This document shows positions 326 through 15,742 of a stretch of DNA of 64,000 bases, in pieces. The translations under genes and the position numbers were made by a program. The notes beneath the pieces were generated by a model. It was not told where the DNA came from, searched no databases, and worked only from the letters and a program-made list of their open reading frames with translations. This DNA comes from Escherichia phage vB_EcoS_MM-1. The first letter of the stretch is position 1, and each line of letters opens with the position of its first letter. The DNA lies in sequence record PV577657; one strand, written 5' to 3'.

Positions 326-515
326 GGGTTTAAACGCCGCTTTGGAAAACGCATTAATGCAGCACTGGGAAACTGGCTATAAGGATGGTGTTGAATCCTG
401 CGCTACTATGCTAGAAGTTATTGCTAATACCTTAATGGAGAAAGGCAATAAAGAATTAGCTGAGCTATTAGACAGTATTGGGCAAAACTTCAGAGAACAG
501 GTGAAAAATGCGTAG
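294..515 (+). CDS. hypothetical small protein
   Basis: ATG at 294 with GAGGAG at 281-286; overlaps neighbours in the tight packing typical of phage operons. Confidence 0.55.
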   Translation: MAFSKPMLPDKGLNAALENALMQHWETGYKDGVESCATMLEVIANTLMEKGNKELAELLDSIGQNFREQVKNA

Positions 516-1344
516 ATTAATTATTATTAGCGGTGCAGGTTTGAGTGTTGAAAGTGGTGTACGAGCTTTTCGTACTGATACTGCTAGTGGTAAAGCATTG
601 TGGGATGACTATGATCTAGAAGAAGTATGTAATATTCATGCCTTTCGTGGTAATTTTTATCATAAAACCCACATGTTTTACAACAAGCGTCGTGAAGAGC
701 TAAAAACTGTTGAACCCAATCTTGCGCATTTGCGTATTGGTGAATGGTATAAACAATATCCAGGTCAAGTAGTAAACTTGACTACCAACGTTGATGACCT
801 TATTGAGCGTGCTGGCGTCCCACATAGTGACATTCTGCACATTCACGGATATTTAAAAGAGGTTGTTGTAGCTGATAGCTACAATAGTAGCAATAAACGG
901 ATTATTGATGTAGGATACAATTCTATTGATCCAGATGATTATAAATGGGTTAAACCTAATGTAATCTTCTTTGGAGAGCATGCTCCTGCATACGCAGAAA
1001 TGTATAATGTTTTTGATGGTATTACCAGTCAAGATATGATCATTGTGGTTGGTTGCTCTAACCAAGTAATTAACTTCTACTGGGAATTATTTCCTGTTCT
1101 TAATTTGACTGCTGCGAAACTTATGGTTGTTAACTACTATGATAGTGCCCTCGCAGCGGAACCGGTCTATCAAGGTATGACTCGTAGTGAGATGTACCAG
1201 CTGGAGGAACGCGGTATCCCTTACTGGAGTAAAGGTGCGGTAGATGCTTTCAGTGACCCTGATTTTATTGCTCGTGTAGAAGCTCATTTAGAGGGTAGAC
1301 CTTATGTGTCGAGAAGCAAGAGAAACAGGTATGTCCATAGTTAA
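508..1344 (+). CDS. Sir2-family (sirtuin-like) NAD-dependent protein, no zinc ribbon
   Basis: Sirtuin motifs in order: GAGLSVESGVRAFR (GAGIS-ESGIP-FR), LTTNVDDL..AG (TQNID-L), HIHG catalytic-His motif, PNVIFFGE; no CxxC pairs. Confidence 0.8.
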   Translation: MRRLIIISGAGLSVESGVRAFRTDTASGKALWDDYDLEEVCNIHAFRGNFYHKTHMFYNKRREELKTVEPNLAHLRIGEWYKQYPGQVVNLTTNVDDLIERAGVPHSDILHIHGYLKEVVVADSYNSSNKRIIDVGYNSIDPDDYKWVKPNVIFFGEHAPAYAEMYNVFDGITSQDMIIVVGCSNQVINFYWELFPVLNLTAAKLMVVNYYDSALAAEPVYQGMTRSEMYQLEERGIPYWSKGAVDAFSDPDFIARVEAHLEGRPYVSRSKRNRYVHS

Positions 1345-1513
1345 ATCTGTATATACACATCCCGACGATATATTTGTATGGGCAGATGGTAGTTGGTGCT
1401 ATCGCTGTGAGCTGTGGGAGATGGACTATAAATCCGATGACTATGGTGTTATATATGTTGATACGGTTGAGTATGATACGTTCTTAGAAAGGAACAAAAA
1501 TGGAAATAAGTAA
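1331..1513 (+). CDS. hypothetical small Cys-containing protein (start uncertain, alternative 1304)
   Basis: ORF track 1304..1513; internal ATG at 1331 sits after the Sir2 coding overlap. Confidence 0.4.
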   Translation: MSIVKSVYTHPDDIFVWADGSWCYRCELWEMDYKSDDYGVIYVDTVEYDTFLERNKNGNK

Positions 1514-2006
1514 TACTCCAATTATTTTTCTAGATATTGATGGGGTGCTCAATTCGAGCATCTCCCACCATCATGCACCTGATGACGAAAAGATTTTCTT
1601 TGGAAGTGACTGGGTTTTCAAGCCGCTTCTCAAGGCTTTTCAGGACTTTATTCGTCCTTCTCCAATAATGATTGTTGGAGTATCATCTTGGTTCTCTGTC
1701 AGAAATGAGATGGAGAACGTTCAGATTATGACCGGATTAGGTCTTATCGATCGTTTTCTTGGTACAACGGATTTTACTGGGGGTGGGTTATCTAGGGGTA
1801 ATTCTGTCCTTCGCTTCGTTGAAAAGCATAAGCTCAAACATTGGTGTGTTCTGGATGACGCTGGTGCTATGATGTATCAGTATCCAACGGTTATAGTCAA
1901 CGGTAGAACTGGAATAAATCTTCAAGATTTAATGGCTGTTAGCTATATGTTAGAGTTTAGTCCAGATCTTGAAATGTGTAAATCCTTACAACAATTTAAG
2001 GTGTAA
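1500..2006 (+). CDS. HAD-superfamily-like hydrolase/phosphatase
   Basis: N-terminal IIFLDIDGVLN matches HAD motif I (DxDGV). Confidence 0.6.
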   Translation: MEISNTPIIFLDIDGVLNSSISHHHAPDDEKIFFGSDWVFKPLLKAFQDFIRPSPIMIVGVSSWFSVRNEMENVQIMTGLGLIDRFLGTTDFTGGGLSRGNSVLRFVEKHKLKHWCVLDDAGAMMYQYPTVIVNGRTGINLQDLMAVSYMLEFSPDLEMCKSLQQFKV

Positions 2007-2977: not shown

Positions 2978-3430
2978 ATGTCATTCACACAGCAAGAACT
3001 TTTAGATAACTTCCGATATGAAGATGGTAAGTTATTTAGAACTACAGGAAGAAATGCAGGGAAAGAATGTTGTGTTTCTACAGGTAACGGATATTATCGT
3101 ATATCTCTAGGGAATAGGACTATGCTTCGGCATAGAGCAATATTTTTAATGCATCATGGATACTTACCTGATTTAGTAGATCATGTGAATACTATAAAAG
3201 GTGATGATCGTATTGAAAATCTTAGAGAGCAGACAGTATCCGGTAATCTAAGAAATATCAAATATAAGAAAGGAATGCATGTTTACCCTTCTGGTAGTAA
3301 GAACTGGCAAGTGGTATTTACTATTAACCGTAAACGTATAGTTAAAGGAACATATGACAACTATGAGGTTGCATGTTCTATGGCCAAGATGTTTAGAGGT
3401 CAATTATACGGTAGGGAATCAATCCAGTAA
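2978..3430 (+). CDS. HNH homing endonuclease
   Basis: RBS GGAGGTGAGG then ATG at 2978; motif HRAIFLMHHGYLPDLVDHVN...DDRIENL typical of phage HNH endonucleases. Confidence 0.8.
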   Translation: MSFTQQELLDNFRYEDGKLFRTTGRNAGKECCVSTGNGYYRISLGNRTMLRHRAIFLMHHGYLPDLVDHVNTIKGDDRIENLREQTVSGNLRNIKYKKGMHVYPSGSKNWQVVFTINRKRIVKGTYDNYEVACSMAKMFRGQLYGRESIQ

Positions 3431-3438
3431 AATTTCAT

Positions 3439-3468
3439 TTGCAAGGGAGTATTATTTTATAGTATAAT
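3439..3468 (+). promoter_or_regulatory. sigma70-type early promoter (T5-like)
   Basis: TTGCAA, 18-nt spacer, TATAAT (3463-3468), then ATTCCCATAAATGAGAGA, resembling the PN25 downstream box. Confidence 0.5.
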
Positions 3469-3498
3469 ATTCCCATAAATGAGAGACATTAGTAAAAA

Positions 3499-3528
3499 TT
3501 GATTTTGCTAATTTTTCTTGTTTACAAT
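3499..3528 (+). promoter_or_regulatory. possible second promoter
   Basis: TTGATT, 18-nt spacer, TACAAT. Confidence 0.35.
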
Positions 3529-3534
3529 CCGCGA

Positions 3535-3953
3535 TACGGAACAGTTAGGCTGCCCCATTAAGGGTTGTTTTAACTGTTACGTGTTAGTTTTTAAACAAAT
3601 AGTTAATAGAATACTTAGCGATCTACATCCCGTAGGAACCCTGGTAAGGCCTCGAAGCAACCTAGTGTGAGGTGGTTGTGAAGTGAGACGGGAAGAGTGA
3701 AAAACTCTGAGAAGTGATGACGTAAGGTATACTGCATCTAGTATGAGCTAGTACATGAAGCATTAGGTGAGCAAATCTGGCTTAGCGGCCATCCTCAAGG
3801 ATTTGTGCGGTATAGTGAAGCGGCAGTGTAGCGTGAAAGGGGAAGTTGCCACCCCCCTTCAGTATTTGCGATTAATTTGTTGAGAAATTGACAGTAACAG
3901 TTGTTCTATTCTTTCTGAATAGTCCTAAAGAAAACTTATTTCATTTCCAACAC
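3535..3953 (+). ncRNA. candidate structured untranslated leader or ncRNA (no ORF of 60 aa or more on either strand)
   Basis: About 420 nt between promoters and the RBS at 3954; purine/G-rich composition unlike the AT-rich flanks; hairpins GAGTgaaaaACTC, ATCCTcaAGGAT and GGGG-N11-CCCC. Confidence 0.3.
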
Positions 3954-3965
3954 AGGAGTATTGTT

Positions 3966-6752
3966 GTGTTCTCAATCCTACAAGGTCATGCAGGATTTCA
4001 TCGCGATTTAGCCACAGGCATTTGGCGAGAAGTTAAAGCAGAAGACTATCTTTTTGCTAAAAGATTTTCCTCAAAGCATCCTGAAGGTAAACCAGCTTCA
4101 ATGCCCTTCAAGTTTGATGTAATTGATGAAGTTGATCCTCAAACCCTAGTAGAAATGCTCCCTCTTATGAGACGTTTAACGTCTGACCCTCATATCGTTG
4201 CGGTACGAGGTCGATGTCTTGCACCCAAAAATAATGTGCGGCGTAAGAAGGGCAACTTTAATGTATCTAACCCAAGTCATATAATTGCAATGGACGTGGA
4301 TGGTATTGTAGATACAGGTGGTTGTAACAAGTTTGATCTTGTTGGCATGGCTCGACATATTATTAGAATGTTAAATAGTATTAGTGAGGATATGTTTCCT
4401 CTTGATGCAGGGTTTATTGCTCATGCATCGTCTTCGGCTGGGCTAAAACCAGGTATCCGAATGCACTTAATACTAGAATCTAATGTTAAAGTAACTCAGG
4501 GTCAAATCAAATTCTTATTTACATCTATCAATGAAAGTAGTAGACAAAAGTATGGCTTTGATATTGCCGACTTAGCTTATTACTCTTCCGTACAGCTCCA
4601 TTATTTTGCAGATCCGTTATTTACCGATGGTATAGTAGATCCGTTTAAGGCGGAGGGTGCTTCACGTCTGGTATTTGTTAAGGGTTCTAAAGTAAACTTA
4701 CCTAATAATCTGGTTGACTATGAAACAACTAGAGGTGAGTTTAAGGAGGAGTTTTACTCTTTACTCGATCAAATTAAAGGTAAAAAAGCTGCCTCCGATA
4801 AAGTAGAGGAAACTATCAGCGAACTAGAAGAAGCTGAGGATGGAGTGTATCTACGTATCATACCTAAACTCTATCACAGAGCTTTAGAGGATGGTGTTGA
4901 TTTTGCATGGCTAGAAAAAGAAATCCGTCCAGCCTTATCAGAATATATTGCAACCAAAGATAATAGTCGTAATATTCAAGATTACTTTAATAACGGTCGT
5001 AAACAGGCTCTGAAAGCATTTGTTAATAATTCTAAACGCGATATACCTGATGTTTTAAAAGGTATTCCACTTAAAAAGCTAGAAACTAACTCTCTAGAAA
5101 CTGATAACTTCTTGAAATTAAATACTGTACCACCAGAAGGTTATATGACTTTTGTAAAAGCAAGTCTAGGTACAGGTAAAACTACGGCGGTTGTGCGTTG
5201 GTTAGATTCAGGAGTTATTAAAGGTAATTTCTTAGCAATTACCAATACTCGAGCACTGGTATCTTCAAATGCTAAGAAATTTAGTGCAGGACAATATGAT
5301 AAGTCTGTAGATATGCTTAATTTTAAGCGTGGTGCTATTGACCGTATGTCCACAACTATTCACTCTTTGCATAAGTTCAAGAGTTTTATTGGTCAAATCG
5401 ATGCAATCTTTATAGATGAATGTGATGCTGTAATGAATGACCTATTATTCGCCCCGGTTGTTAAACAACGTCGTGAATGTATTCAGGTTCTTCGGGATAT
5501 TCTTGCAACTGCAAAAATCATTATATTATCTGATGGGGATATTAGTGCAGAAACAATTGAAGCATATGGTTCTTTAATTGAGTTTGATAAACCGGTTGCA
5601 TTTTATAATCATCACCGAAAAATGCTATCAAAAGCTCATGCCTACGAGTTCCCTGATGAATCCAGTATTTGGGTTGCACTTCAGACTTCTCTAGAGATGG
5701 GTGAGAAATCTATCCTAGTATCTGACTGTGGGCCGGATGAACTGAATGAGAAGGGCATGGCGTTGCGTCGTAATACGGGTGCGTTAGTTAAGGAAATCCA
5801 CTCAAACTCTACGTCTGATGTAGATATTCGACGTATTCTGGATTACACAACTAATGAGTTAATTGACCAACAAATTGATTGCTTATTATGTAGTCCATCC
5901 GTAACGAGTGGTGTTGACTTCAACTATTTTGATAACGTATTCGTTATTACTAGAACCAGTAACCAAGCGCCAAACATGCGTTTTCAAGCAATCAGGCGCG
6001 ACCGTGGTGCTCAGAACATTTATTATTTTATTGATAAATCTACGAGTGGATTCTCCGCAGGCTCTGAACAATATAATATTGATGAAGGTTGGCTGGAGTT
6101 AGCACAGCAATTATACGCACGTCGTAGGGAGCTGGAGTCTAGGAACTATACTAGTACTTTACGTTATTACTTGCTTGATCAGGGTGCAACTATTGATATT
6201 TTCAGTGAAAGCTGGGGAACTATCGAAGGTGCAGGTAAAGAGTATACAGAAGAGCGAATCAAAGCCATTTTGTATTCAACTCCTGATTATTGTGCTCCAC
6301 GCCATGCAGATGCATATGAAGCTAAACTACTTCTTGTTCGCTATTATCATCTTGAGTCTATTAAAGATGTAACAGTTGAGCATGTTGAGCAATACATTAA
6401 GGATAAACCGAATGATCGAGCGGCATTCTTCCATAAAATGCACGAGATGTTCTGGGAAGATATTAAGAAGTGTTCAAATGTCACTATCAAACCATTCATA
6501 GAAGCTCTGAAAGGCAAGAAGAAAGATTTCTTCCTTAAAACAGGTCAGAGTGCTAACCCAAAATATGCCAGAATGTATCTTGGTATGATGGGTATTGGCA
6601 AGGATATGAACACGGAGAATATTGTAGACTGGTACAGAACTTATTGTAAAATCGAGTGTATGCCAATTCCTTTCAAATTCATGACAGAGGAAGAGAAGGC
6701 TATGGCAGAAGAAGTACTGTCCGAACTTGGAGCAACTAATGAAGACGCATAA
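3966..6752 (+). CDS. large replication protein: AEP-primase-like N-domain fused to a P-loop helicase domain (possibly the replication-origin-binding type protein of T5-like phages)
   Basis: In-frame GTG at 3966 with AGGAG at 3954-3958 (track start TTG 3888 is less likely); DxD motif IIAMDVDG, GIRMHLIL, Walker A ASLGTGKTT, Walker B IFIDECD. Confidence 0.6.
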   Translation: MFSILQGHAGFHRDLATGIWREVKAEDYLFAKRFSSKHPEGKPASMPFKFDVIDEVDPQTLVEMLPLMRRLTSDPHIVAVRGRCLAPKNNVRRKKGNFNVSNPSHIIAMDVDGIVDTGGCNKFDLVGMARHIIRMLNSISEDMFPLDAGFIAHASSSAGLKPGIRMHLILESNVKVTQGQIKFLFTSINESSRQKYGFDIADLAYYSSVQLHYFADPLFTDGIVDPFKAEGASRLVFVKGSKVNLPNNLVDYETTRGEFKEEFYSLLDQIKGKKAASDKVEETISELEEAEDGVYLRIIPKLYHRALEDGVDFAWLEKEIRPALSEYIATKDNSRNIQDYFNNGRKQALKAFVNNSKRDIPDVLKGIPLKKLETNSLETDNFLKLNTVPPEGYMTFVKASLGTGKTTAVVRWLDSGVIKGNFLAITNTRALVSSNAKKFSAGQYDKSVDMLNFKRGAIDRMSTTIHSLHKFKSFIGQIDAIFIDECDAVMNDLLFAPVVKQRRECIQVLRDILATAKIIILSDGDISAETIEAYGSLIEFDKPVAFYNHHRKMLSKAHAYEFPDESSIWVALQTSLEMGEKSILVSDCGPDELNEKGMALRRNTGALVKEIHSNSTSDVDIRRILDYTTNELIDQQIDCLLCSPSVTSGVDFNYFDNVFVITRTSNQAPNMRFQAIRRDRGAQNIYYFIDKSTSGFSAGSEQYNIDEGWLELAQQLYARRRELESRNYTSTLRYYLLDQGATIDIFSESWGTIEGAGKEYTEERIKAILYSTPDYCAPRHADAYEAKLLLVRYYHLESIKDVTVEHVEQYIKDKPNDRAAFFHKMHEMFWEDIKKCSNVTIKPFIEALKGKKKDFFLKTGQSANPKYARMYLGMMGIGKDMNTENIVDWYRTYCKIECMPIPFKFMTEEEKAMAEEVLSELGATNEDA

Positions 6753-7257
6753 ACCAATGCCTCCTATGGCATTTATCCTAGAAAAGCTTAGGTATGACGA
6801 AAGTACTGGGGACTTAATTTGGTTATCTGGCCCAAGGAAGGGAAAGGTAGCGGGCTCCAAAATGAAAACTGGGAGACAGCTAGAGTTTATGATAAATGGG
6901 GGGCGGACAGCTTACTTAGCCCATAGAATAATCTGGTTTATAAAGACAGGTGAAGATCCTGGAGATAAAACTATTGACCATAAAGACGGTGATAGTTTAA
7001 ACAACTTGTGGGATAATTTACGTAAGGCTACCTATTCCGAAAATGGAAAGAATAAGAAGTGTTCTACTAATTCTACCGGATTCACTGGAGTTGTAAAACG
7101 AGGTAATAGGTATATGGCCTACGCTTACTGCGATGGAAAGCAACATATTTTTGGTAGACGAGATACCCCGGAAGAAGCCCATCAGCTATACCTTAGGGGA
7201 GTTAAAGAGCTGTTTGGTGAATTTAATCCCTCGGAGAGATATGACAGTGAAGAATAA
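6727..7257 (+). CDS. HNH homing endonuclease
   Basis: AYLAHRIIWFIKTGEDPGDKTIDHKDGDSLNNLWDNL; start overlaps the 3' end of the preceding gene. Confidence 0.8.
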   Translation: MEQLMKTHKPMPPMAFILEKLRYDESTGDLIWLSGPRKGKVAGSKMKTGRQLEFMINGGRTAYLAHRIIWFIKTGEDPGDKTIDHKDGDSLNNLWDNLRKATYSENGKNKKCSTNSTGFTGVVKRGNRYMAYAYCDGKQHIFGRRDTPEEAHQLYLRGVKELFGEFNPSERYDSEE

Positions 7258-7542: not shown

Positions 7543-8247
7543 ATGGCTGGTTCTCGTAGAAAGAAACATATCCATGAAATCCCGGATGAAGTCTTTAAAA
7601 AGGTTATAGAGCATCTGGAGAACGGTGGTACTAAGAAAGCAGCATGTGAAATGCTCGGCGTATCATCCAATCCAACTATGGAAAGGATGATTGAAGAATG
7701 GCAAGACCGCCAGATTCAAGTTGCCGAAATGAAGAAAAAGAAACGTGGCACACTCATTGAAGGCATTGAGTTAGCTAACGTTATTGAGCAGTATTTATCT
7801 GGTGATTCTTTTGAAGAAATTGCCGATCGTAATTACCGCTCTGTAGCAATGGTTAAATCTGTTCTGGAACGATATGGTGCTCTACTTCGTTTGAACGATA
7901 TTGTAGATCCATTGAATCCTCCAATTATTCCTGATGATGCTGTAGCAGAAGAATTTGCAGTTGGTGAGCTTGTTTGGGTTCCTGGATACCAGTGTATCGG
8001 TGAAATCAAAAAAGCAATGGATAATCCTGTTGGTTGCTACCGTGTATGGCTTCTATCCGAAGGCAAACAACAGAACGTTCATTATATGAATTACGAGCTG
8101 GCTTCTGTTAAACATCTGGAAAAGTTAGGGGTAGACGTAAAATCTCTAGGGTATAAGTGGACTCGTGAAGAAATTATTACGTTGATTAACGAAGCTGTTA
8201 AGGCTGCTCTGAAACTTGATAAAGAAAAAGGAAAACGCCGTGAGTAA
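7543..8247 (+). CDS. helix-turn-helix DNA-binding protein
   Basis: RBS GAGAGGAG; N-terminal GGTKKAACEMLGVS HTH-like segment. Confidence 0.55.
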   Translation: MAGSRRKKHIHEIPDEVFKKVIEHLENGGTKKAACEMLGVSSNPTMERMIEEWQDRQIQVAEMKKKKRGTLIEGIELANVIEQYLSGDSFEEIADRNYRSVAMVKSVLERYGALLRLNDIVDPLNPPIIPDDAVAEEFAVGELVWVPGYQCIGEIKKAMDNPVGCYRVWLLSEGKQQNVHYMNYELASVKHLEKLGVDVKSLGYKWTREEIITLINEAVKAALKLDKEKGKRRE

Positions 8248-10056: not shown

Positions 10057-11028
10057 ATGACCAATGTAAAAGACTTTATTAAACGCTGTCAAGAAGCATA
10101 TTATCAAGGTATGTCTTTAATCTCTGACGAAGAATATGATCGTCTGATTAAAAGATTTCCGTTAGAAGAAGAGATCGGGCCTAAGGGCGATATTCCACAT
10201 CTGTATCGTATGTATTCTTTACAGAAAGTTTATTATAATCGTGGAGATAAACCCCCGTTTAACCCATTAGGTCAGGTAGAAACTGATAAGTTAGATGGTT
10301 GTGCAATTTCTCTGTTATATATTAATGGCGAATTTGTTCAAGCACTAACTCGTGGTAACGGTATTCTAGGGAATGATGTCACAAGCAACGTAAGATTGCT
10401 GAACATCCCTAAAAAGATTTCCCAAAAAGTACCTACTCAAATCACTGGTGAAGTTCTAATTACAAAAGAAGTAGAAAATAAACGTAACTTTGCCTCTGGT
10501 GCTATTAACCTCAAAGATAGTGATGATTTTGTACAACGTATCGGAGAAGGTGGTTTAATCTTCGTTGCATATGGTATCCAGTGTTCTGCTGAATCTGTAG
10601 GTATTACAGAAGCATATTTAAAAGATATGCTTTGGCTGGAGAATGAGAACTTCTTAACAGTTGTTAATGTGCGTTCTTTCTTTAAATGGATTCCGACGGA
10701 CGGTAAAGTTGTTCGTATTAATGATAACAACAAATTCTTCCGTGAAGGCTGGACTAATAAATTCCCTCGTGGAGCATTCGCTATTAAAGAGGATGAAGAA
10801 GGCGAGATTACAACTCTTACTAAAGTTGAATGGCAGGTAGGAGCTTCTGGTAAAGTAACTCCAGTTGGTTATTTCGAACCGGTAATTATTGATGATGCTA
10901 CAATTGTTAAAGCGACTCTTAATAACGTTGATTATATTAACTCTCTTGATCTAGAGATCGGTTGCCAGATTCGAGTGATTCGTGCTGGTGGTGTAATCCC
11001 GTGCATAGTAGAGCGAGTATATGATTAA
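10057..11028 (+). CDS. NAD-dependent DNA ligase, adenylation and OB-fold part (subunit A of a split ligase)
   Basis: KxDG adenylation motif (KLDGCA), TRGNGILGNDVT, OB-fold end IRAGGVIPCIVERV. Confidence 0.85.
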   Translation: MTNVKDFIKRCQEAYYQGMSLISDEEYDRLIKRFPLEEEIGPKGDIPHLYRMYSLQKVYYNRGDKPPFNPLGQVETDKLDGCAISLLYINGEFVQALTRGNGILGNDVTSNVRLLNIPKKISQKVPTQITGEVLITKEVENKRNFASGAINLKDSDDFVQRIGEGGLIFVAYGIQCSAESVGITEAYLKDMLWLENENFLTVVNVRSFFKWIPTDGKVVRINDNNKFFREGWTNKFPRGAFAIKEDEEGEITTLTKVEWQVGASGKVTPVGYFEPVIIDDATIVKATLNNVDYINSLDLEIGCQIRVIRAGGVIPCIVERVYD

Positions 11029-11230: not shown

Positions 11231-12010
11231 ATGAAAATCGAAATTCCAACACAATGTCCCTCTTGTGGTTCTAAGCTAGATCTTGTCAACGGACAATTAT
11301 TTTGTCGGAATAAGTCCAACTGTCCAGCGCAATCAAGTAAGTTAATTGAGAACTTCTGTACAAAAATGAAGTTAAAGGGCTTTGGTCCAAAAACTATTGA
11401 AAAGCTGGAGCTGACGAAGATCTCAGAACTATTTTACCTAACCGAAGAAGATTTGGTTAGAGCCGTGGGTAGCAAGGTTGCCGCTAAGTTAATTAGCGAA
11501 TTAAATACTAAAGTTCGCGGAGACATTGACTTTGGTTCAGTTCTCGGTTCTTTAGGAATCCCTCTAATTGGAGAGGTTGCAGCAAAGAAATTATCCCAAA
11601 ATTGCACTAGCTTCCACGATGTGAAGGCTGACGGCAAGGCTGGAGAAAACTACAAAGCCTGGCTAAATTCCCCGCAAGGCAAGGATGTTATCGAACTACC
11701 GTGGAAATTCTCAACTGGTATTAAGGGCACTAAAGCTGACGTCATCATTACAGATGAATTAGTTGCCCAGCCAAATGGAATCGCGGTATGTATTACCGGA
11801 TCTTTGCAAGATTTTGCAAATCGAACGGATGCAACAAACTATTTAGAAAGTCTAGGGTATACGGTTAAGAAATCCGTTACCAAAGACGTAAAATACCTGA
11901 TCTGTGAGGATGAATCAAAACGTTCTTCCTCATCTTATAAGAAAGCCGAAACGAATGGGATAGAAATCCTGTCGATTAAAGAACTATTGGAGAAAAATAA
12001 TAATGTCTAA
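11231..12010 (+). CDS. NAD-dependent DNA ligase, Zn-finger/HhH/BRCT part (subunit B)
   Basis: CPSCGSKLDLVNGQLFCRNKSNCPAQ matches the LigA zinc finger; BRCT-like C-terminus; RBS AAGGAAG. Confidence 0.85.
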   Translation: MKIEIPTQCPSCGSKLDLVNGQLFCRNKSNCPAQSSKLIENFCTKMKLKGFGPKTIEKLELTKISELFYLTEEDLVRAVGSKVAAKLISELNTKVRGDIDFGSVLGSLGIPLIGEVAAKKLSQNCTSFHDVKADGKAGENYKAWLNSPQGKDVIELPWKFSTGIKGTKADVIITDELVAQPNGIAVCITGSLQDFANRTDATNYLESLGYTVKKSVTKDVKYLICEDESKRSSSSYKKAETNGIEILSIKELLEKNNNV

Positions 12011-12786: not shown

Positions 12787-12820
12787 TAAGGGGAGGGGGC
12801 TATGCTCCTTCCCCTTTTTG
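12787..12820 (+). terminator. rho-independent terminator
   Basis: AAGGGGA ... TCCCCTT stem followed by TTTTT. Confidence 0.6.
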
Positions 12821-12852
12821 CATTTAGAAGGCACGAAAGCGTGCAAAGGAGA

Positions 12853-14325
12853 ATGACCTTGTTTAACGTGCAAGCTGTAGTGTTGAAGATGCTTCTAGCT
12901 TCTGAACAGAAGCAAATAGCATTGGAAACATTCTCAAAACTGCATAAAGATCATTTTAATGACGCTTTCTCCTCAATTTACCAAGCCGTCCAGAATTATT
13001 ATAAAAAATATAACACAATGCCGTCCATTGACGCACTGATGCTTGAGGCTAATAGGAACGCCCGCCTTTCTCAAGCTCTAGTCGTTTTAGCTAACACTCA
13101 AATTCCAGAAGTGAGCATGGAACAGGCACTTGAAGTCCTAGAGGCCGAATATACACAGGATTTATTCCTAAAGCTTCTAGAAACAGACGTGCTTCAAGAT
13201 TTAACAATGCTGGATCAGGGAGAAATTCTCAACCGAGTTGCCTCCCTTCACTTAAAATTAGAAGAGAAAGTAACGAATACTGGAAAAGTATTCAACGCAG
13301 ATAACATGCGTATTTTCCAGAGAGAAGAAGATACCAAACTGAACCTAATCGCTCTTGGTATTTGTAATGAGTTCGACGCTCAAATTGGTTTAGCTCGCAC
13401 AGAAACGTTACTGCTTGGTGGTTGGCGTGGTACTGGTAAATCCATTATCTGTTCAAACATACAGGTTCAGCAATATTTGAATGGAGATATTGCTCCATAC
13501 TTCTCAATTGAGATGAAAGAACATGAAGTATTTAGACGTAATCTAGCCATGCTAGCTGGTGTATCAGCACTAGCAATGCGTAATAATACTCTAGAAGGTG
13601 CAGCTCTGTTGAGACTAGCCAGAACTAGAGCTAGGATGTTCAACGGTGGTGAAGAGCTTTTCGATAACTTCGTTAAACAGTATACAATGGCTAAGATGAG
13701 TGATTTCTACGATATGGAGAGTAAGCTAATAGAAGGGTATGAGCTACATACTCCTATGATTATTGTTTATGACCCTGAGTTGTCTATTACAACAGTTGAC
13801 GTAGAATTAAATAAATTAGTTGCTAGATATGGTGATAAAGTTACAGTAGCTCTACTTGACTATATTAACCAAACCCGACTTCCAGACTCTAAAACCATTG
13901 ATATGTATGACTGGAAAGAACAGATGGTTGTTAGCTCGTCTTTCAAATCTATCTGCCAGAAACATAACGTGGCTGGCGTAGCTCCTTACCAGATCGATCA
14001 AGACGGTAGAACACGTATGTCAAAGGGGATTCTTGATTCCGCAGACATGGCTGCTAATCTTAATGCTGCAAAAGCTGATAATGGTCAAGGTGCTATTATG
14101 TTTGACTTCGTTAAGACTCGTTCTTCTGATAGCGTGAAGTTTATGCCTAAAATGAACTGGGAAACTCTGCGAATGGATAACACTACCAACCTAGCAATGG
14201 AAGATATATCTCAAATGGAAGCTGAGTTCGTTATCCCTATTGAGAAGGATAAGCCGGCTCAACCTAAACGTGCTAAGAAAGACAAAGCTGAAAATTCAAC
14301 AGGTGAACAGGCCAGCGATATATGA
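12853..14325 (+). CDS. DnaB/gp4-like replicative helicase (RecA-fold)
   Basis: Walker A GGWRGTGKS; ATG 12853 with AAAGGAGA RBS (track start 12802 lies inside the terminator hairpin). Confidence 0.7.
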   Translation: MTLFNVQAVVLKMLLASEQKQIALETFSKLHKDHFNDAFSSIYQAVQNYYKKYNTMPSIDALMLEANRNARLSQALVVLANTQIPEVSMEQALEVLEAEYTQDLFLKLLETDVLQDLTMLDQGEILNRVASLHLKLEEKVTNTGKVFNADNMRIFQREEDTKLNLIALGICNEFDAQIGLARTETLLLGGWRGTGKSIICSNIQVQQYLNGDIAPYFSIEMKEHEVFRRNLAMLAGVSALAMRNNTLEGAALLRLARTRARMFNGGEELFDNFVKQYTMAKMSDFYDMESKLIEGYELHTPMIIVYDPELSITTVDVELNKLVARYGDKVTVALLDYINQTRLPDSKTIDMYDWKEQMVVSSSFKSICQKHNVAGVAPYQIDQDGRTRMSKGILDSADMAANLNAAKADNGQGAIMFDFVKTRSSDSVKFMPKMNWETLRMDNTTNLAMEDISQMEAEFVIPIEKDKPAQPKRAKKDKAENSTGEQASDI

Positions 14326-14855
14326 TAACACAGGAAAGGCTAAAAGAGTTATTTGATTACTCCCCAGGAACTGGGGAGTTTACTAGAAAAGTATCTAGAG
14401 GTAATCAGAAAGCTGGTAGTATAGCTGGTTCTTTAAGAAAAGATGATTATATATGTATATGGGTAGATGGAAAGCCTTACTATGCGCATCAACTAGCTTT
14501 TCTCTATATGGAAGGTTATTTACCTGAAGAAGTAGACCATATAAACCGTATACGAAGTGATAATCGTTGGGTTAACCTTAAAGATTCTTCTCACCAAGAG
14601 AATAGCAGGAATAAAGCAGCTAAAAGTAAATCAGGGTATATAGGAGTTAGTTGGAATAAACAAAGGCAAAAATGGCAAGTTCAACTAAGAGATACCAATA
14701 AAAAGAAAATATTCGGTGGATATTTTGAGTACCAGAATTTAGAATCAGCAGTAGATAAGATTAATAATCTACGATTACAATTTCATGGGGAAAATGCTAT
14801 TCAAGAAATATTCGACCCGTCTAATTATCCTGCATTAGAGGAGATAAATTCATGA
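14322..14855 (+). CDS. HNH homing endonuclease
   Basis: YAHQLAFLYMEGYLPEEVDHINRIRSDNRWVNL; overlaps both helicase end and primase start. Confidence 0.8.
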   Translation: MITQERLKELFDYSPGTGEFTRKVSRGNQKAGSIAGSLRKDDYICIWVDGKPYYAHQLAFLYMEGYLPEEVDHINRIRSDNRWVNLKDSSHQENSRNKAAKSKSGYIGVSWNKQRQKWQVQLRDTNKKKIFGGYFEYQNLESAVDKINNLRLQFHGENAIQEIFDPSNYPALEEINS

Positions 14856-15742
14856 GTAGAATAACAGAATTACTTGATCTTAAGGGAATTGAGTATAAAG
14901 ATACTGGTGGAGATATTTTAATCTGTTGCTTAAATCCATATCATGATGATAAACACCCAAGTTTGCGTATTGATCCTGAAACCGGGATTATGCACTGCTT
15001 GAGTTGCGGTTTTGGCAAAGGTATACCTAGTATTTATCATTATTTTAATGAGACTCAATATAGACAATCTCCAAGACTATCCCAAGTACGTAAAAAGATT
15101 TCAGAGATTAGAAATGGATCTACGAATCTTGCAATCCCAGAATCTGCCTGCCTTTTCGAAGGTGATTTCCGAGGTATAAGTTCTAAGACCTTGAAGAAAT
15201 ATTTTGCTTTCCAACACCAAGAGAACTGGGAAGGCAGAATTGTATTCCCAATCACAGATGCTGTTGGACGCAATATCCTATTTTTGGGTCGTTCTATAAA
15301 CAGTTCTGCCCCTCCTAAATACTTAGTAAAACCAAAACAGGTTTCACCACCAATTTTCCCTGTACGATATAATACTCCAGTTCTTATTCTAGTTGAAGGT
15401 ATCTTTGATATGCTGAACCTAGAGGATAGTGGTATAGACTATGCTTCTTGCTGCTTTGGTACACATCAGTTTACTTCAGACAACATTGCAGATAAGTTCA
15501 GTCCGTACATTATTGCTGGTGTTAAAGTTGTTGTTATCTTACTAGATAATGATGCTTCTGGTAATAAAGCTGCACAAGCACTGGCCAAGCTAATTCGTAC
15601 AAAAACGCGTTTAACACCTGTAGTTGCTAACTTTCTTCTGCCTGAAGGTAAAGACCCAGGTGACTTAAATAAAGAAGAAATTGATATGTTAGCAAAACGT
15701 ATTGAAATTTTAGTTGCTGAATCGCTTAAAGATTTGGTATAA
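14852..15742 (+). CDS. DnaG-like DNA primase (zinc-binding domain plus Toprim)
   Basis: CCLNPYHDDKHPSLRIDPETGIMHCLSCGFGK zinc-binding motif; Toprim-like LVEGIFD and LLDNDASG. Confidence 0.85.
   Translation: MSRITELLDLKGIEYKDTGGDILICCLNPYHDDKHPSLRIDPETGIMHCLSCGFGKGIPSIYHYFNETQYRQSPRLSQVRKKISEIRNGSTNLAIPESACLFEGDFRGISSKTLKKYFAFQHQENWEGRIVFPITDAVGRNILFLGRSINSSAPPKYLVKPKQVSPPIFPVRYNTPVLILVEGIFDMLNLEDSGIDYASCCFGTHQFTSDNIADKFSPYIIAGVKVVVILLDNDASGNKAAQALAKLIRTKTRLTPVVANFLLPEGKDPGDLNKEEIDMLAKRIEILVAESLKDLV

What the first reader, a model, noticed from the sequence alone, without database searches (positions are those of the whole stretch)
3966..6752. Giant protein fusing an AEP-primase-like DxD domain to a Walker A/B helicase domain
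The N-terminal part contains IIAMDVDG and GIRMHLIL (DxD and His motifs, as in archaeo-eukaryotic primase/PrimPol catalytic cores). The central part has Walker A GTGKTT and Walker B IFIDECD. The phage also encodes a separate DnaG-type primase and a DnaB/gp4-like helicase, so a second primase-helicase is redundant on paper and may be an origin-specific initiator or repair primase-polymerase.
Basis: partly seen in the sequence, partly recalled or inferred. Interest (0 to 1): 0.45.

Follow-up and report, generated by a model that had tools for sequence, protein, structure and literature searches.

The report
Phage T5 D2: hidden primase–helicase
The gene is the phage T5 "D2 / replication origin-binding" protein, a known helicase related to the herpesvirus origin-binding protein, and its unstudied first quarter is very probably a working archaeal/eukaryotic-type primase, so this classic phage seems to carry a second, dedicated primer-making enzyme for starting replication.

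Summary
The coding sequence (CDS) 3966-6752(+) encodes a 928-aa protein with all four quoted motifs. The window is a T5-like phage (Tequintavirus). The protein is 94% identical to T5.108, the "D2" protein shown in 2013 to be a bipolar SF2 helicase related to HSV UL9; that paper does not mention a primase domain.

The archaeo-eukaryotic primase (AEP) interpretation is supported.
- An AlphaFold model of residues 1-380 (pLDDT 93.6) retrieves almost only AEP structures with Foldseek: LigD-Pol, ASFV and S-2L PrimPols, RepB', poxvirus D5. The scores are weak.
- D110/D112, S155/H167 and D202 are invariant, and R234 nearly so, in 33 full-length relatives down to 17% identity.
- More distant relatives carry the same domain fused to VapE, D5-type or PriCT-2 modules.

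The rest of the protein is a helical bundle, a UL9-like SF2 helicase (Foldseek E 3e-15) and a helical C-terminal domain. The gene keeps its place beside DnaB-like, DnaG-type and PolA genes even in a very divergent relative, so it is not redundant.

The most likely role is an initiator primase-helicase. Catalysis and origin binding are untested. The domain matches no Pfam family and none of the PrimPol-PV1 families. It is a new member of a known kind, of moderate interest.

The parts
3966..6752 (+). CDS of the 928-aa D2 / 'replication origin binding' protein (GTG start, stop included)
   Evidence: ORF list and translation. It is 100% identical to PV577658 CDS0146, 94% identical to T5 T5.108, and matches phrog_3712 end to end.
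3954..3958 (+). Shine-Dalgarno AGGAG, 7 nt upstream of the GTG start
   Evidence: Read directly from the sequence.
3966..4724 (+). AEP-type primase(-polymerase) catalytic domain, aa 1-253
4293..4301 (+). AEP motif I, D110-V-D112 (metal ligands)
   Evidence: Translation. D110 and D112 are 33/33 in A3, and 70/72 and 71/72 in A2. The motif lies on strand 104-114 of the model.
4428..4466 (+). AEP motif II, S155-SSAG...R-M-H167
   Evidence: Translation. S155 and H167 are 33/33 in A3; H167 is 67/72 in A2. H167 lies on strand 164-176. Weak hhalign matches register it with the motif II His of All3500, RepE/RepS and PrimHYQ.
4569..4571 (+). AEP motif III aspartate, D202
   Evidence: Translation. It is invariant, 72/72 in A2 and 33/33 in A3.
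4665..4667 (+). Candidate motif IV arginine, R234 ('Rh' at the start of strand 235-238)
   Evidence: Present in 66/72 of A2 and 29/33 of A3. The motif is defined in PMC5862659. Its equivalence here is inferred from position and secondary structure.
4743..5036 (+). Helical bundle domain, aa 260-357 (four long helices), in the position that PriCT / helix-bundle domains occupy in other AEP primases
5133..6065 (+). UL9-like SF2 helicase core, aa 390-700 (two RecA-like domains)
   Evidence: PF02399. PDB sequence hits to HSV-1 OBP. Foldseek 9hgj_A E 2.9e-15. Biochemistry of the T5 orthologue (PMC3632103).
5160..5186 (+). Walker A, ASLGTGKTT (K405)
   Evidence: Translation. Invariant A399, G402, G404 and K405. 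K405E abolishes the ATPase and helicase activities of T5 D2 (PMC3632103).
5406..5426 (+). Walker B / motif II, IFIDECD (D484, E485)
   Evidence: Translation. D484 and E485 are invariant.
6078..6749 (+). C-terminal all-helical domain, aa 705-928, a candidate DNA-binding or dimerisation domain
   Evidence: Model secondary structure. The Foldseek alignment to HSV-1 OBP spans 556-604 columns, longer than the helicase core alone. The function is inferred from UL9, whose C-terminal domain binds the origin and forms the dimer interface (PMC12543377). No sequence-level match was found.
12802..14325 (+). Context: separate DnaB-like (SF4) replicative helicase (T5 D6)
   Evidence: PF03796 DnaB_C, E 7.8e-9. 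Annotation.
14852..15742 (+). Context: separate DnaG-type primase (T5 pri)
   Evidence: Zn_ribbon_DnaG, DNAG_N and Toprim domains. Annotation.

Best explanation
The gene encodes the T5 D2 protein, a four-module replication enzyme. The modules are a catalytically competent AEP primase(-polymerase) domain (aa 1-253), a helical bundle (aa 260-357), a UL9-like SF2 helicase (aa 390-700) and a helical C-terminal domain (aa 705-928).

**Proposed mechanism.**
1. D2 engages phage DNA at a start site, either an origin or a DNA structure.
2. It opens the DNA with its mainly 3'-5' helicase.
3. Its own AEP domain, helped by the helical bundle, lays down the first primer on the exposed strand for the T5 PolA polymerase.
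4. The DnaB-like helicase (D6) and the DnaG-type primase then take over fork progression and lagging-strand priming.

In effect D2 would combine in one chain what herpesviruses split between UL9 and the UL52 primase. It would work like the AEP-helicase initiators of plasmids and satellites.

**Shown.** The helicase identity and the activity of the orthologue. The AEP-like fold of the model. Strict conservation of the catalytic residues. Conserved synteny with the other replisome genes.

**Inferred.** Primer synthesis. Origin recognition. The hand-over to DnaB and DnaG.
For: **Identity.** 100% identical to a Tequintavirus record and 94% to T5 T5.108.

**Helicase.** PF02399. PDB sequence hits to HSV-1 OBP. 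Foldseek E 2.9e-15 over 556 columns. Published ATPase and bipolar helicase activity, with 3'-5' dominant and K405E dead (PMC3632103).

**AEP fold.**
- The N-domain model has pLDDT 93.6.
- 48 of the top 50 Foldseek PDB hits are AEP-containing proteins: LigD-Pol (prob 0.98), S-2L PrimPol (prob 0.96), ASFV PrimPol, RepB', Prim-PolC, VACV/MPXV D5 and E5, and HSV helicase-primase.

**Catalytic residues under selection.** D110, D112, S155, H167 and D202 are 33/33 in full-length relatives down to 17% identity. R234 is 29/33. D202 is 72/72 in the wider set.

**Homologues of the domain.** They are fused to VapE-like, DUF5906/D5-type, D5_N and PriCT_2 modules. They match positions 1-230 of phrog_16950 'DNA primase' and the N-terminus of the Xylella phage Xfas53 P4-family primase.

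**Non-redundancy.** The divergent D2-like protein P0037 lies in the same NrdD - D2 - ligA/B - D5 - DnaB - DnaG - PolA module. The protein is present in 905 phage records across Escherichia, Salmonella, Klebsiella, Vibrio, Aeromonas and other hosts.

**Initiator analogy.** An AEP+SF2 relative sits right after an AlpA-like HTH_17 gene on a small element, with no DnaB or DnaG gene in the 10-kb contig. AEP fusions to UL9-like SF2 helicases are described for mobile elements (PMC5862659).
Against: - No Pfam, NCBIfam or PDB sequence profile matches the N-domain.
- hhalign against All3500 and six other PrimPol-PV1 family sets is not significant (best P 0.014-0.05), while those families detect each other at E 1e-4 to 1e-14, except All3500 against PolpTN2, which gave 0.05.
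- The published biochemistry reported no primase activity. It was not assayed: ATP was the only nucleotide discussed.
- No origin, iterons or AT-rich unwinding element were found in or next to the gene, and sequence-specific DNA binding by D2 has not been shown.
- The phage already has a DnaG-type primase, so D2's primase could serve repair or restart rather than initiation.
Confidence: 0.6

Rival explanations
1. The AEP domain is active, but D2 is a restart or repair primase-polymerase-helicase rather than the origin initiator. It would reprime or extend DNA at stalled, broken or nicked templates, or at recombination intermediates. Normal initiation and lagging-strand priming would use DnaB and DnaG.
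For: - The catalytic residues are conserved.
- The closest structural hits include repair polymerases and repriming enzymes: LigD-Pol, Prim-PolC, human PrimPol and NHEJ polymerase.
- The phage has a complete DnaB/DnaG/PolA set.
- No origin-like repeats lie near the gene.
- T5 D2 acts on short tailed duplexes as a low-order oligomer, typical of repair-type SF2 helicases (PMC3632103).
- T5 virion DNA carries site-specific single-strand nicks (general knowledge, not tested here).
Against: - The helicase and C-terminal part resemble an origin-binding initiator (UL9) best, not a repair helicase.
- Relatives of the AEP domain are overwhelmingly fused to replicative or initiator helicases of mobile elements.
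- The gene sits in the core replication module.
Confidence: 0.22
2. The N-terminal domain has an AEP-derived fold but is not a polymerase in practice. It would serve as a DNA-binding, regulatory or protein-recruitment module for the helicase, for example explaining the extra 5'-3' 'bipolar' behaviour.
For: - The only activities demonstrated are ATPase, helicase and DNA binding (PMC3632103).
- Similarity to characterised AEPs is weak.
- Inactivated AEP and Rep-like domains used for DNA binding are known in other viral helicases (PMC4889955, for origin-binding domains derived from inactivated nucleases).
Against: Both motif I aspartates, the motif II Ser and His and the motif III Asp are invariant across sequences that are otherwise only 17-45% identical. 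The motif IV Arg is nearly invariant. That pattern is what a maintained active site looks like, not a degenerate scaffold. The AEP domain has as many columns at 90% conservation or more (13) as RecA2 of the helicase.
Confidence: 0.12
3. The N-terminal domain is not related to AEPs at all. The DxD and His motifs are chance matches, and the fold hits are false positives from a generic alpha/beta sandwich.
Against: - 48 of the 50 best Foldseek hits are AEP proteins from at least eight different families.
- The motif order and spacing (DxD, then S..H, then D, then R on successive strands) are those of AEPs.
- Even the weak hhalign matches register motifs I and II correctly.
- Homologues carry PriCT-2, D5_N and VapE partners typical of AEPs.
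Confidence: 0.06

Closest known systems
Bacteriophage T5 D2 protein (T5.108, AAU05245; Wong, Sayers & Sanders 2013, PMC3632103)
   Same: It is the orthologue: 94% identity over all 928 aa, in the same genomic position, with identical Walker A including K405.
   Different: Nothing of substance differs. However, the published description covers only the helicase core, two coiled-coil predictions and a putative HTH. The N-terminal 250 aa were not assigned, and primase activity was not considered. In NC_005859 the gene name D2 is attached to a different 234-aa ORF.
Herpes simplex virus 1 origin-binding protein UL9 (PDB 9hgj/9hgi; PF02399)
   Same: It has an SF2 helicase core with the same family signature and is the best structural match of the full-length model (E 2.9e-15). 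It also has a helical C-terminal domain after the helicase, 3'-5' polarity, and a role in starting viral replication beside a separate helicase-primase.
   Different: UL9 has no primase domain; herpesvirus priming is done by the separate AEP UL52. The UL9 C-terminal RVKNL origin-recognition motif was not found by sequence in D2. D2 origin binding is unproven. D2 also shows weaker 5'-3' unwinding.
AEP-helicase fusion initiators of plasmids, satellites and viruses (pRN1 ORF904, NrS-1 primase-polymerase, poxvirus D5, ASFV C962R PrimPol, VapE/P4-family 'primases')
   Same: They have an N-terminal AEP catalytic domain, then a helical domain, then a 3'-5' helicase and a DNA-binding end. The D2 N-domain's own homologues have exactly these VapE/D5-type partners. 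The AEP parts of these proteins appear among the fold hits.
   Different: Their helicases are hexameric SF3/AAA+ types, whereas D2 uses a non-ring SF2 helicase. Most of these elements lack a separate DnaB/DnaG pair, which T5 has.
All3500-family AEPs fused to UL9-like / pVOG9714 SF2 helicases (PrimPol-PV1 supergroup, Kazlauskas et al. 2018, PMC5862659)
   Same: The overall architecture is the same: AEP followed by a UL9-like SF2 helicase. They keep His in motif II, have an Arg in motif IV, and are associated with phages and mobile elements.
   Different: The profile-profile comparison of the D2-type AEP with All3500 and the other PV1 families is not significant (P 0.014-0.6), although most of those families recognise each other strongly with the same method. 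Motif III context also differs: D..Y..VQ.HY.A.P in D2, against D....NP.RVMRL.G in All3500. T5 is absent from that paper's tables.

Membership tests
Archaeo-eukaryotic primase (AEP) superfamily | RRM-like alpha/beta catalytic core fold shared by AEPs | tested here: met
Archaeo-eukaryotic primase (AEP) superfamily | Motif I (hhhDhD), motif II (sG..H) and motif III (hD), in this order, conserved | tested here: met
   D110-x-D112, S155...H167 and D202 are present. They are invariant in 33 full-length relatives, and conserved in 67-72 of 72 sequences in the wider set.
Archaeo-eukaryotic primase (AEP) superfamily | Significant sequence or profile match to a curated AEP family | tested here: not met
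   No Pfam, NCBIfam or PDB-sequence hit for aa 1-380 or for its relatives' N-domains. The only matches are to PHROGs named 'DNA primase' through the relatives.
Archaeo-eukaryotic primase (AEP) superfamily | Template-dependent primer synthesis or polymerase activity dependent on the motif I aspartates | not testable with these tools
   This needs biochemistry. The only published assays on the T5 protein are ATPase, helicase and EMSA.
PrimPol-PV1 supergroup / All3500 family (Kazlauskas 2018) | Detectable profile similarity to PolpTN2-related families | tested here: not met
   hhalign of the D2-type N-domain profile (72 sequences) gives P 0.048 against All3500 and 0.014-0.6 against PolpTN2, RepE/RepS, PrimHYQ, PrimQH, RepB' and InversePrim. 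Control comparisons of All3500 against most of these give E 1e-4 to 4e-14. The family samples were small (2-19 sequences).
PrimPol-PV1 supergroup / All3500 family (Kazlauskas 2018) | Motif IV 'Rh' arginine on the strand downstream of motif III | tested here: inconclusive
   R234-L at the start of strand 235-238 is conserved in 66/72 and 29/33 sequences. Its equivalence to PolpTN2 R231 is positional only.
UL9-like SF2 helicases (Pfam PF02399 Herpes_ori_bp) | Match above the curated Pfam threshold, with SF2 motifs I, II and VI | tested here: met
   PF02399 scores 29.1 bits against a cut-off of 20. Walker A and B and R672/Q674/R678/R680 are conserved. PDB hits are to UL9. Foldseek E 2.9e-15.
UL9-like SF2 helicases (Pfam PF02399 Herpes_ori_bp) | Sequence-specific origin binding through the C-terminal domain | not tested
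   There is no sequence match to the UL9 C-terminal domain. The long Foldseek alignment (556-604 columns) hints at partial structural overlap only. No T5 origin sequence is available to test.
PriCT / helix-bundle accessory domain of AEP primases | Homology of the helical domain that follows the AEP core to PriCT-1/2 or the pRN1 helix-bundle domain | tested here: inconclusive

The most novel reading that the evidence does not exclude
T5 D2 would be the founding characterised member of a previously uncatalogued AEP family: it has no Pfam model and lies outside the PrimPol-PV1 families. Its primase would be wired to a non-hexameric UL9-type SF2 helicase. This single protein would recognise the long-sought T5 replication start sites, melt them and synthesise the first leading-strand primer. 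The reported 'bipolar' helicase behaviour would then partly reflect ssDNA handling by the AEP and helical-bundle module. Bacterial viruses with a full DnaB/DnaG replisome would still depend on an archaeo-eukaryotic-type primase for initiation, a one-chain equivalent of herpesvirus UL9 plus UL52.
Probability: 0.3. Interest if true: 0.65.

Novelty: new member of a known kind. Interest (0 to 1): 0.45.

Why it matters
T5 is a classic model phage whose replication initiation is still not understood. Its D2 protein is the only biochemically studied UL9-type helicase from a bacterial virus.

If the N-terminal quarter is an active AEP primase, three things follow.
- The published picture of D2 as a bipolar helicase with an HTH is incomplete.
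- T5-like phages (over 900 sequenced genomes, many of them therapy candidates) carry two unrelated primases with presumably divided labour.
- Simple experiments on an already purified protein could define how a non-ring SF2 helicase and an AEP cooperate to start replication.

It also marks an AEP family that current domain databases miss. This explains the inconsistent GenBank labels for this gene: 'replication origin binding', 'DNA primase', 'DNA primase C', 'helicase', 'hypothetical', and even 'tail protein'.

Tried and rejected
- **Word-indexed homologue search** with aa 1-380 returned only two fragments, so the exhaustive representative search was used instead.
- **Sequence links of the N-domain to solved structures.** The single sequence and two profiles found only UL9, VapE and NrS-1 helicase parts, and nothing for the AEP part.
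- **Pfam, NCBIfam and PHROGs at permissive thresholds** on the N-domain returned only its own PHROG.
- **Membership in the All3500 / PrimPol-PV1 families** was tested with sequences taken from the supplement of PMC5862659 and rejected at the profile level.
- **PriCT homology of the helical bundle** was not supported by hhalign.
- **An origin near or inside the gene.** Repeat and composition scans showed only short two-copy chance-level repeats and no AT trough.
- **PhiHAP-1/N15-type RepA.** I tested whether the ~1000-aa distant relatives P0049 and P0053 are RepA proteins of this type. tblastn against phages instead hit the Xylella phage Xfas53 primase and T5-like phages, so that link is not shown.
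- **Cluster names** for ten relatives were uninformative.
- **Literature searches** for an AEP or primase-polymerase description of T5 D2 found none in the held library. Iyer et al. 2005 (PMC1176014) is not held, so prior mention there cannot be excluded.
- **RSF1010** could not be fetched by accession.
- **Active-site geometry.** Model coordinates are not exposed, so it could not be measured.
Full report
**1. What is there**

The window is a T5-like phage. Region 3888-6752 is 100% identical to Escherichia phage vB_EcoS_MM-2 (Tequintavirus). It is 80-99% identical to more than 400 other T5-like genomes.

The ORF ending at 6752 starts at GTG 3966, seven bases after an AGGAG. This agrees with the deposited annotation and with the start of the PHROG profile match.

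- HIIAMDVDG, with D110 and D112
- SSSAGLKPGIRMHLIL, with H167
- ASLGTGKTT, with K405
- IFIDECD, with D484 and E485

These were verified by translation. The phage does encode a separate DnaB-like helicase (12802-14325) and a DnaG-type primase (14852-15742).

**2. Identity of the protein**

It is 94% identical over its full length to T5 T5.108. This is the protein that Wong, Sayers and Sanders purified as 'D2' (AAU05245). They showed it to be a DNA-dependent ATPase and a bipolar SF2 helicase:
- 3'-5' unwinding is dominant.
- K405E is inactive.
- The protein works as a low-order oligomer.
- HSV UL9 is its closest characterised relative (PMC3632103).

That paper assigns only residues 389-690 (helicase), two coiled-coil predictions and a putative HTH at 308-329. 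The first ~250 residues are left unassigned and no primase is mentioned.

Public records name the gene inconsistently: 'replication origin binding protein', 'helicase', 'DNA primase', 'DNA primase C', 'hypothetical', and even 'tail protein'. In NC_005859 the gene name D2 sits on a neighbouring 234-aa ORF. That ORF has no helicase signature.

**3. The helicase two-thirds**

- Pfam gives only PF02399 (Herpes_ori_bp) above threshold.
- PDB sequence searches hit only HSV-1 origin-binding protein structures.
- A full-length AlphaFold model (33-sequence alignment, pLDDT 89.3) has HSV-1 OBP as its best Foldseek match. The E-value is 2.9e-15 over 556-604 alignment columns, ahead of RecQ/BLM/DEAD-box helicases at about 1e-9.
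- Walker A and B and the motif VI arginines are invariant or nearly so.
- After the helicase comes an all-helical domain, aa 705-928. In UL9 the C-terminal domain binds the origin and forms the dimer interface (PMC12543377). For D2 this role is only an analogy.

**4. The N-terminal third: evidence for an AEP**

(a) *Homologues.* An exhaustive phmmer search of 1.84 billion representatives with aa 1-380 found 81 relatives. About 30 have the same ~900-1050-aa architecture. The rest share only aa ~30-260. They carry other C-terminal modules: VapE-like (11), DUF5906/D5-type (8), PriCT_2 (4), D5_N, Pox_D5 and a DnaG zinc ribbon. Thirty-nine of 42 match phrog_16950 'DNA primase'. In short single-domain relatives this match covers positions 1-230 of the profile, which is the shared domain itself. 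One relative has PriCT_2 immediately after it. Two distant ~1000-aa relatives of this domain also hit the N-terminus of the Xylella phage Xfas53 'P4 family primase'.

(b) *Fold.* A model of aa 1-380 from a 72-sequence alignment has pLDDT 93.6.
- With Foldseek against the PDB, 48 of the 50 best hits are AEP-containing proteins from many families. These are mycobacterial and Pseudomonas LigD-Pol, archaeal NHEJ polymerase, ASFV PrimPol, cyanophage S-2L PrimPol, RSF1010 RepB', Prim-PolC, vaccinia and mpox D5/E5, and HSV helicase-primase. Probabilities reach 0.98, but E-values are only 2e-3 to 0.2 and TM-scores are low.

(c) *Motifs.*
- In 33 full-length relatives (17-80% identical), D110, D112, S155, H167 and D202 are invariant and R234 is 29/33.
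- In the 72-sequence set D202 is 72/72, D112 is 71/72, D110 is 70/72, H167 is 67/72 (otherwise Arg) and R234 is 66/72.
- Their order and their location on successive strands (104-114, 164-176, 235-238) correspond to AEP motifs I, II, III and the 'Rh' motif IV described by Kazlauskas et al..
- The AEP domain has as many near-invariant columns (13) as the second RecA domain of the helicase. This argues for a maintained active site.

**5. Evidence against, and limits**

- No curated sequence model (Pfam, NCBIfam, PDB sequences) recognises the domain.
- I took primase-domain sequences of All3500, PolpTN2, RepE/RepS, PrimHYQ, PrimQH, RepB' and InversePrim from the supplement of PMC5862659 and ran hhalign. 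The D2-type profile reaches only P 0.014-0.6. All3500 detects PrimHYQ, PrimQH, InversePrim, RepE/RepS and RepB' at 4e-14 to 1e-4.
- The weak D2 alignments do register motif I with motif I and the motif II His with His. [quoted passage not shown] - Nothing computational shows catalysis or origin binding.
- No iterons or AT-rich element were seen around the gene.

**6. Context**

The protein is present in 905 phage records, essentially the whole family Demerecviridae on Escherichia, Salmonella, Klebsiella, Proteus, Providencia, Vibrio and Aeromonas.

A very divergent member (P0037) lies in the same module: NrdD - D2-like - split NAD ligase - D5-like - DnaB - DnaG - PolA. The second primase-helicase has therefore been retained alongside DnaB and DnaG over long evolutionary distances. 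This speaks against redundancy.

Outside T5-like phages, an AEP+SF2 relative (P0049) follows an AlpA-like HTH_17 gene on a small contig with no DnaB or DnaG gene in view. That is the layout of satellite or island replication initiators.

**7. Mechanism proposed**

D2 is most likely an initiator primase-helicase. The C-terminal and helicase parts would engage and open DNA. The AEP domain with its helical bundle would make the first primer for the T5 PolA. DnaB (D6) and the DnaG-type primase would then run the fork.

The pairing of an AEP with a predominantly 3'-5' helicase is the same logic as in AEP-SF3/MCM systems, whereas DnaG pairs with 5'-3' DnaB. This polarity argument rests on established knowledge of those families and is an inference here. 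I give this reading about 0.6.

The main rival is a restart or repair primase-polymerase, at about 0.2. It is favoured by the repair-type AEPs among the fold hits and by the presence of a complete DnaB/DnaG set. A non-catalytic AEP-derived DNA-binding module (about 0.1) and 'not an AEP' (about 0.05) are disfavoured by the conservation pattern and by the specificity of the fold hits.

**8. Comparison and novelty**

The protein itself is known, and the helicase half is already explained. AEP-helicase fusions are a well-known kind. AEP fusions to UL9-like SF2 helicases have been noted for the All3500 family (PMC5862659). Some GenBank annotators already write 'DNA primase'.

What appears not to be in the literature I could search is the recognition that the biochemically characterised T5 D2 helicase carries a conserved AEP active site. 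The same goes for the observation that this AEP type lies outside current curated families. Iyer et al. 2005 could not be consulted.

I therefore rate it a new member of a known kind, with moderate interest (0.45). It is directly testable with existing reagents and bears on the unsolved question of how T5 starts replication, but the concept is not surprising to specialists in phage replication.

Noticed in passing
window 7543-8247 (+): This 234-aa ORF is annotated 'helicase', and in NC_005859 it carries the gene name D2 (T5.111). It has no P-loop or helicase domain in Pfam, only a sub-threshold HTH_28 hit. The label and gene name look misassigned; Wong et al. use D2 for the 928-aa protein.
   Followed up: partly
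window 6739-7257 (+): An HNH homing-endonuclease ORF (PF13392, E 1e-12) overlaps the last 14 nt of the D2 CDS. A second HNH ORF lies at about 14322-14855 (from the annotation), between the DnaB-like helicase and the DnaG-type primase genes. A third lies just upstream of D2, at about 2978-3430.
   Followed up: partly
window 10057-11028 and 11231-12010 (+): The NAD-dependent DNA ligase is encoded as two separate CDS (ligA/ligB), as in T5. The split is also present in the very divergent T5-like contig L004 (14945-15928 and 16022-16792).
   Followed up: no
window 508-1344 and 1500-2006 (+): Two Sir2-like (NAD-dependent deacetylase / ADP-ribosyltransferase family) genes lie a few kb upstream of the replication module, according to the deposited annotation. 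I did not examine them here.
   Followed up: no
L006 5402-8652 (metagenomic contig): A ~1000-aa protein (P0049) with the D2-type AEP domain and a weak SF2 (DEAD/ResIII) signal directly follows an HTH_17 (AlpA/excisionase-like) gene. This suggests that the AEP+SF2 architecture also serves small integrative elements or satellites.
   Followed up: partly
window 3431-3965: A ~530-nt stretch upstream of D2 holds only two tiny annotated ORFs. In T5 the equivalent region carries an annotated terminator and promoter. I saw no iterons or a marked AT trough there.
   Followed up: partly
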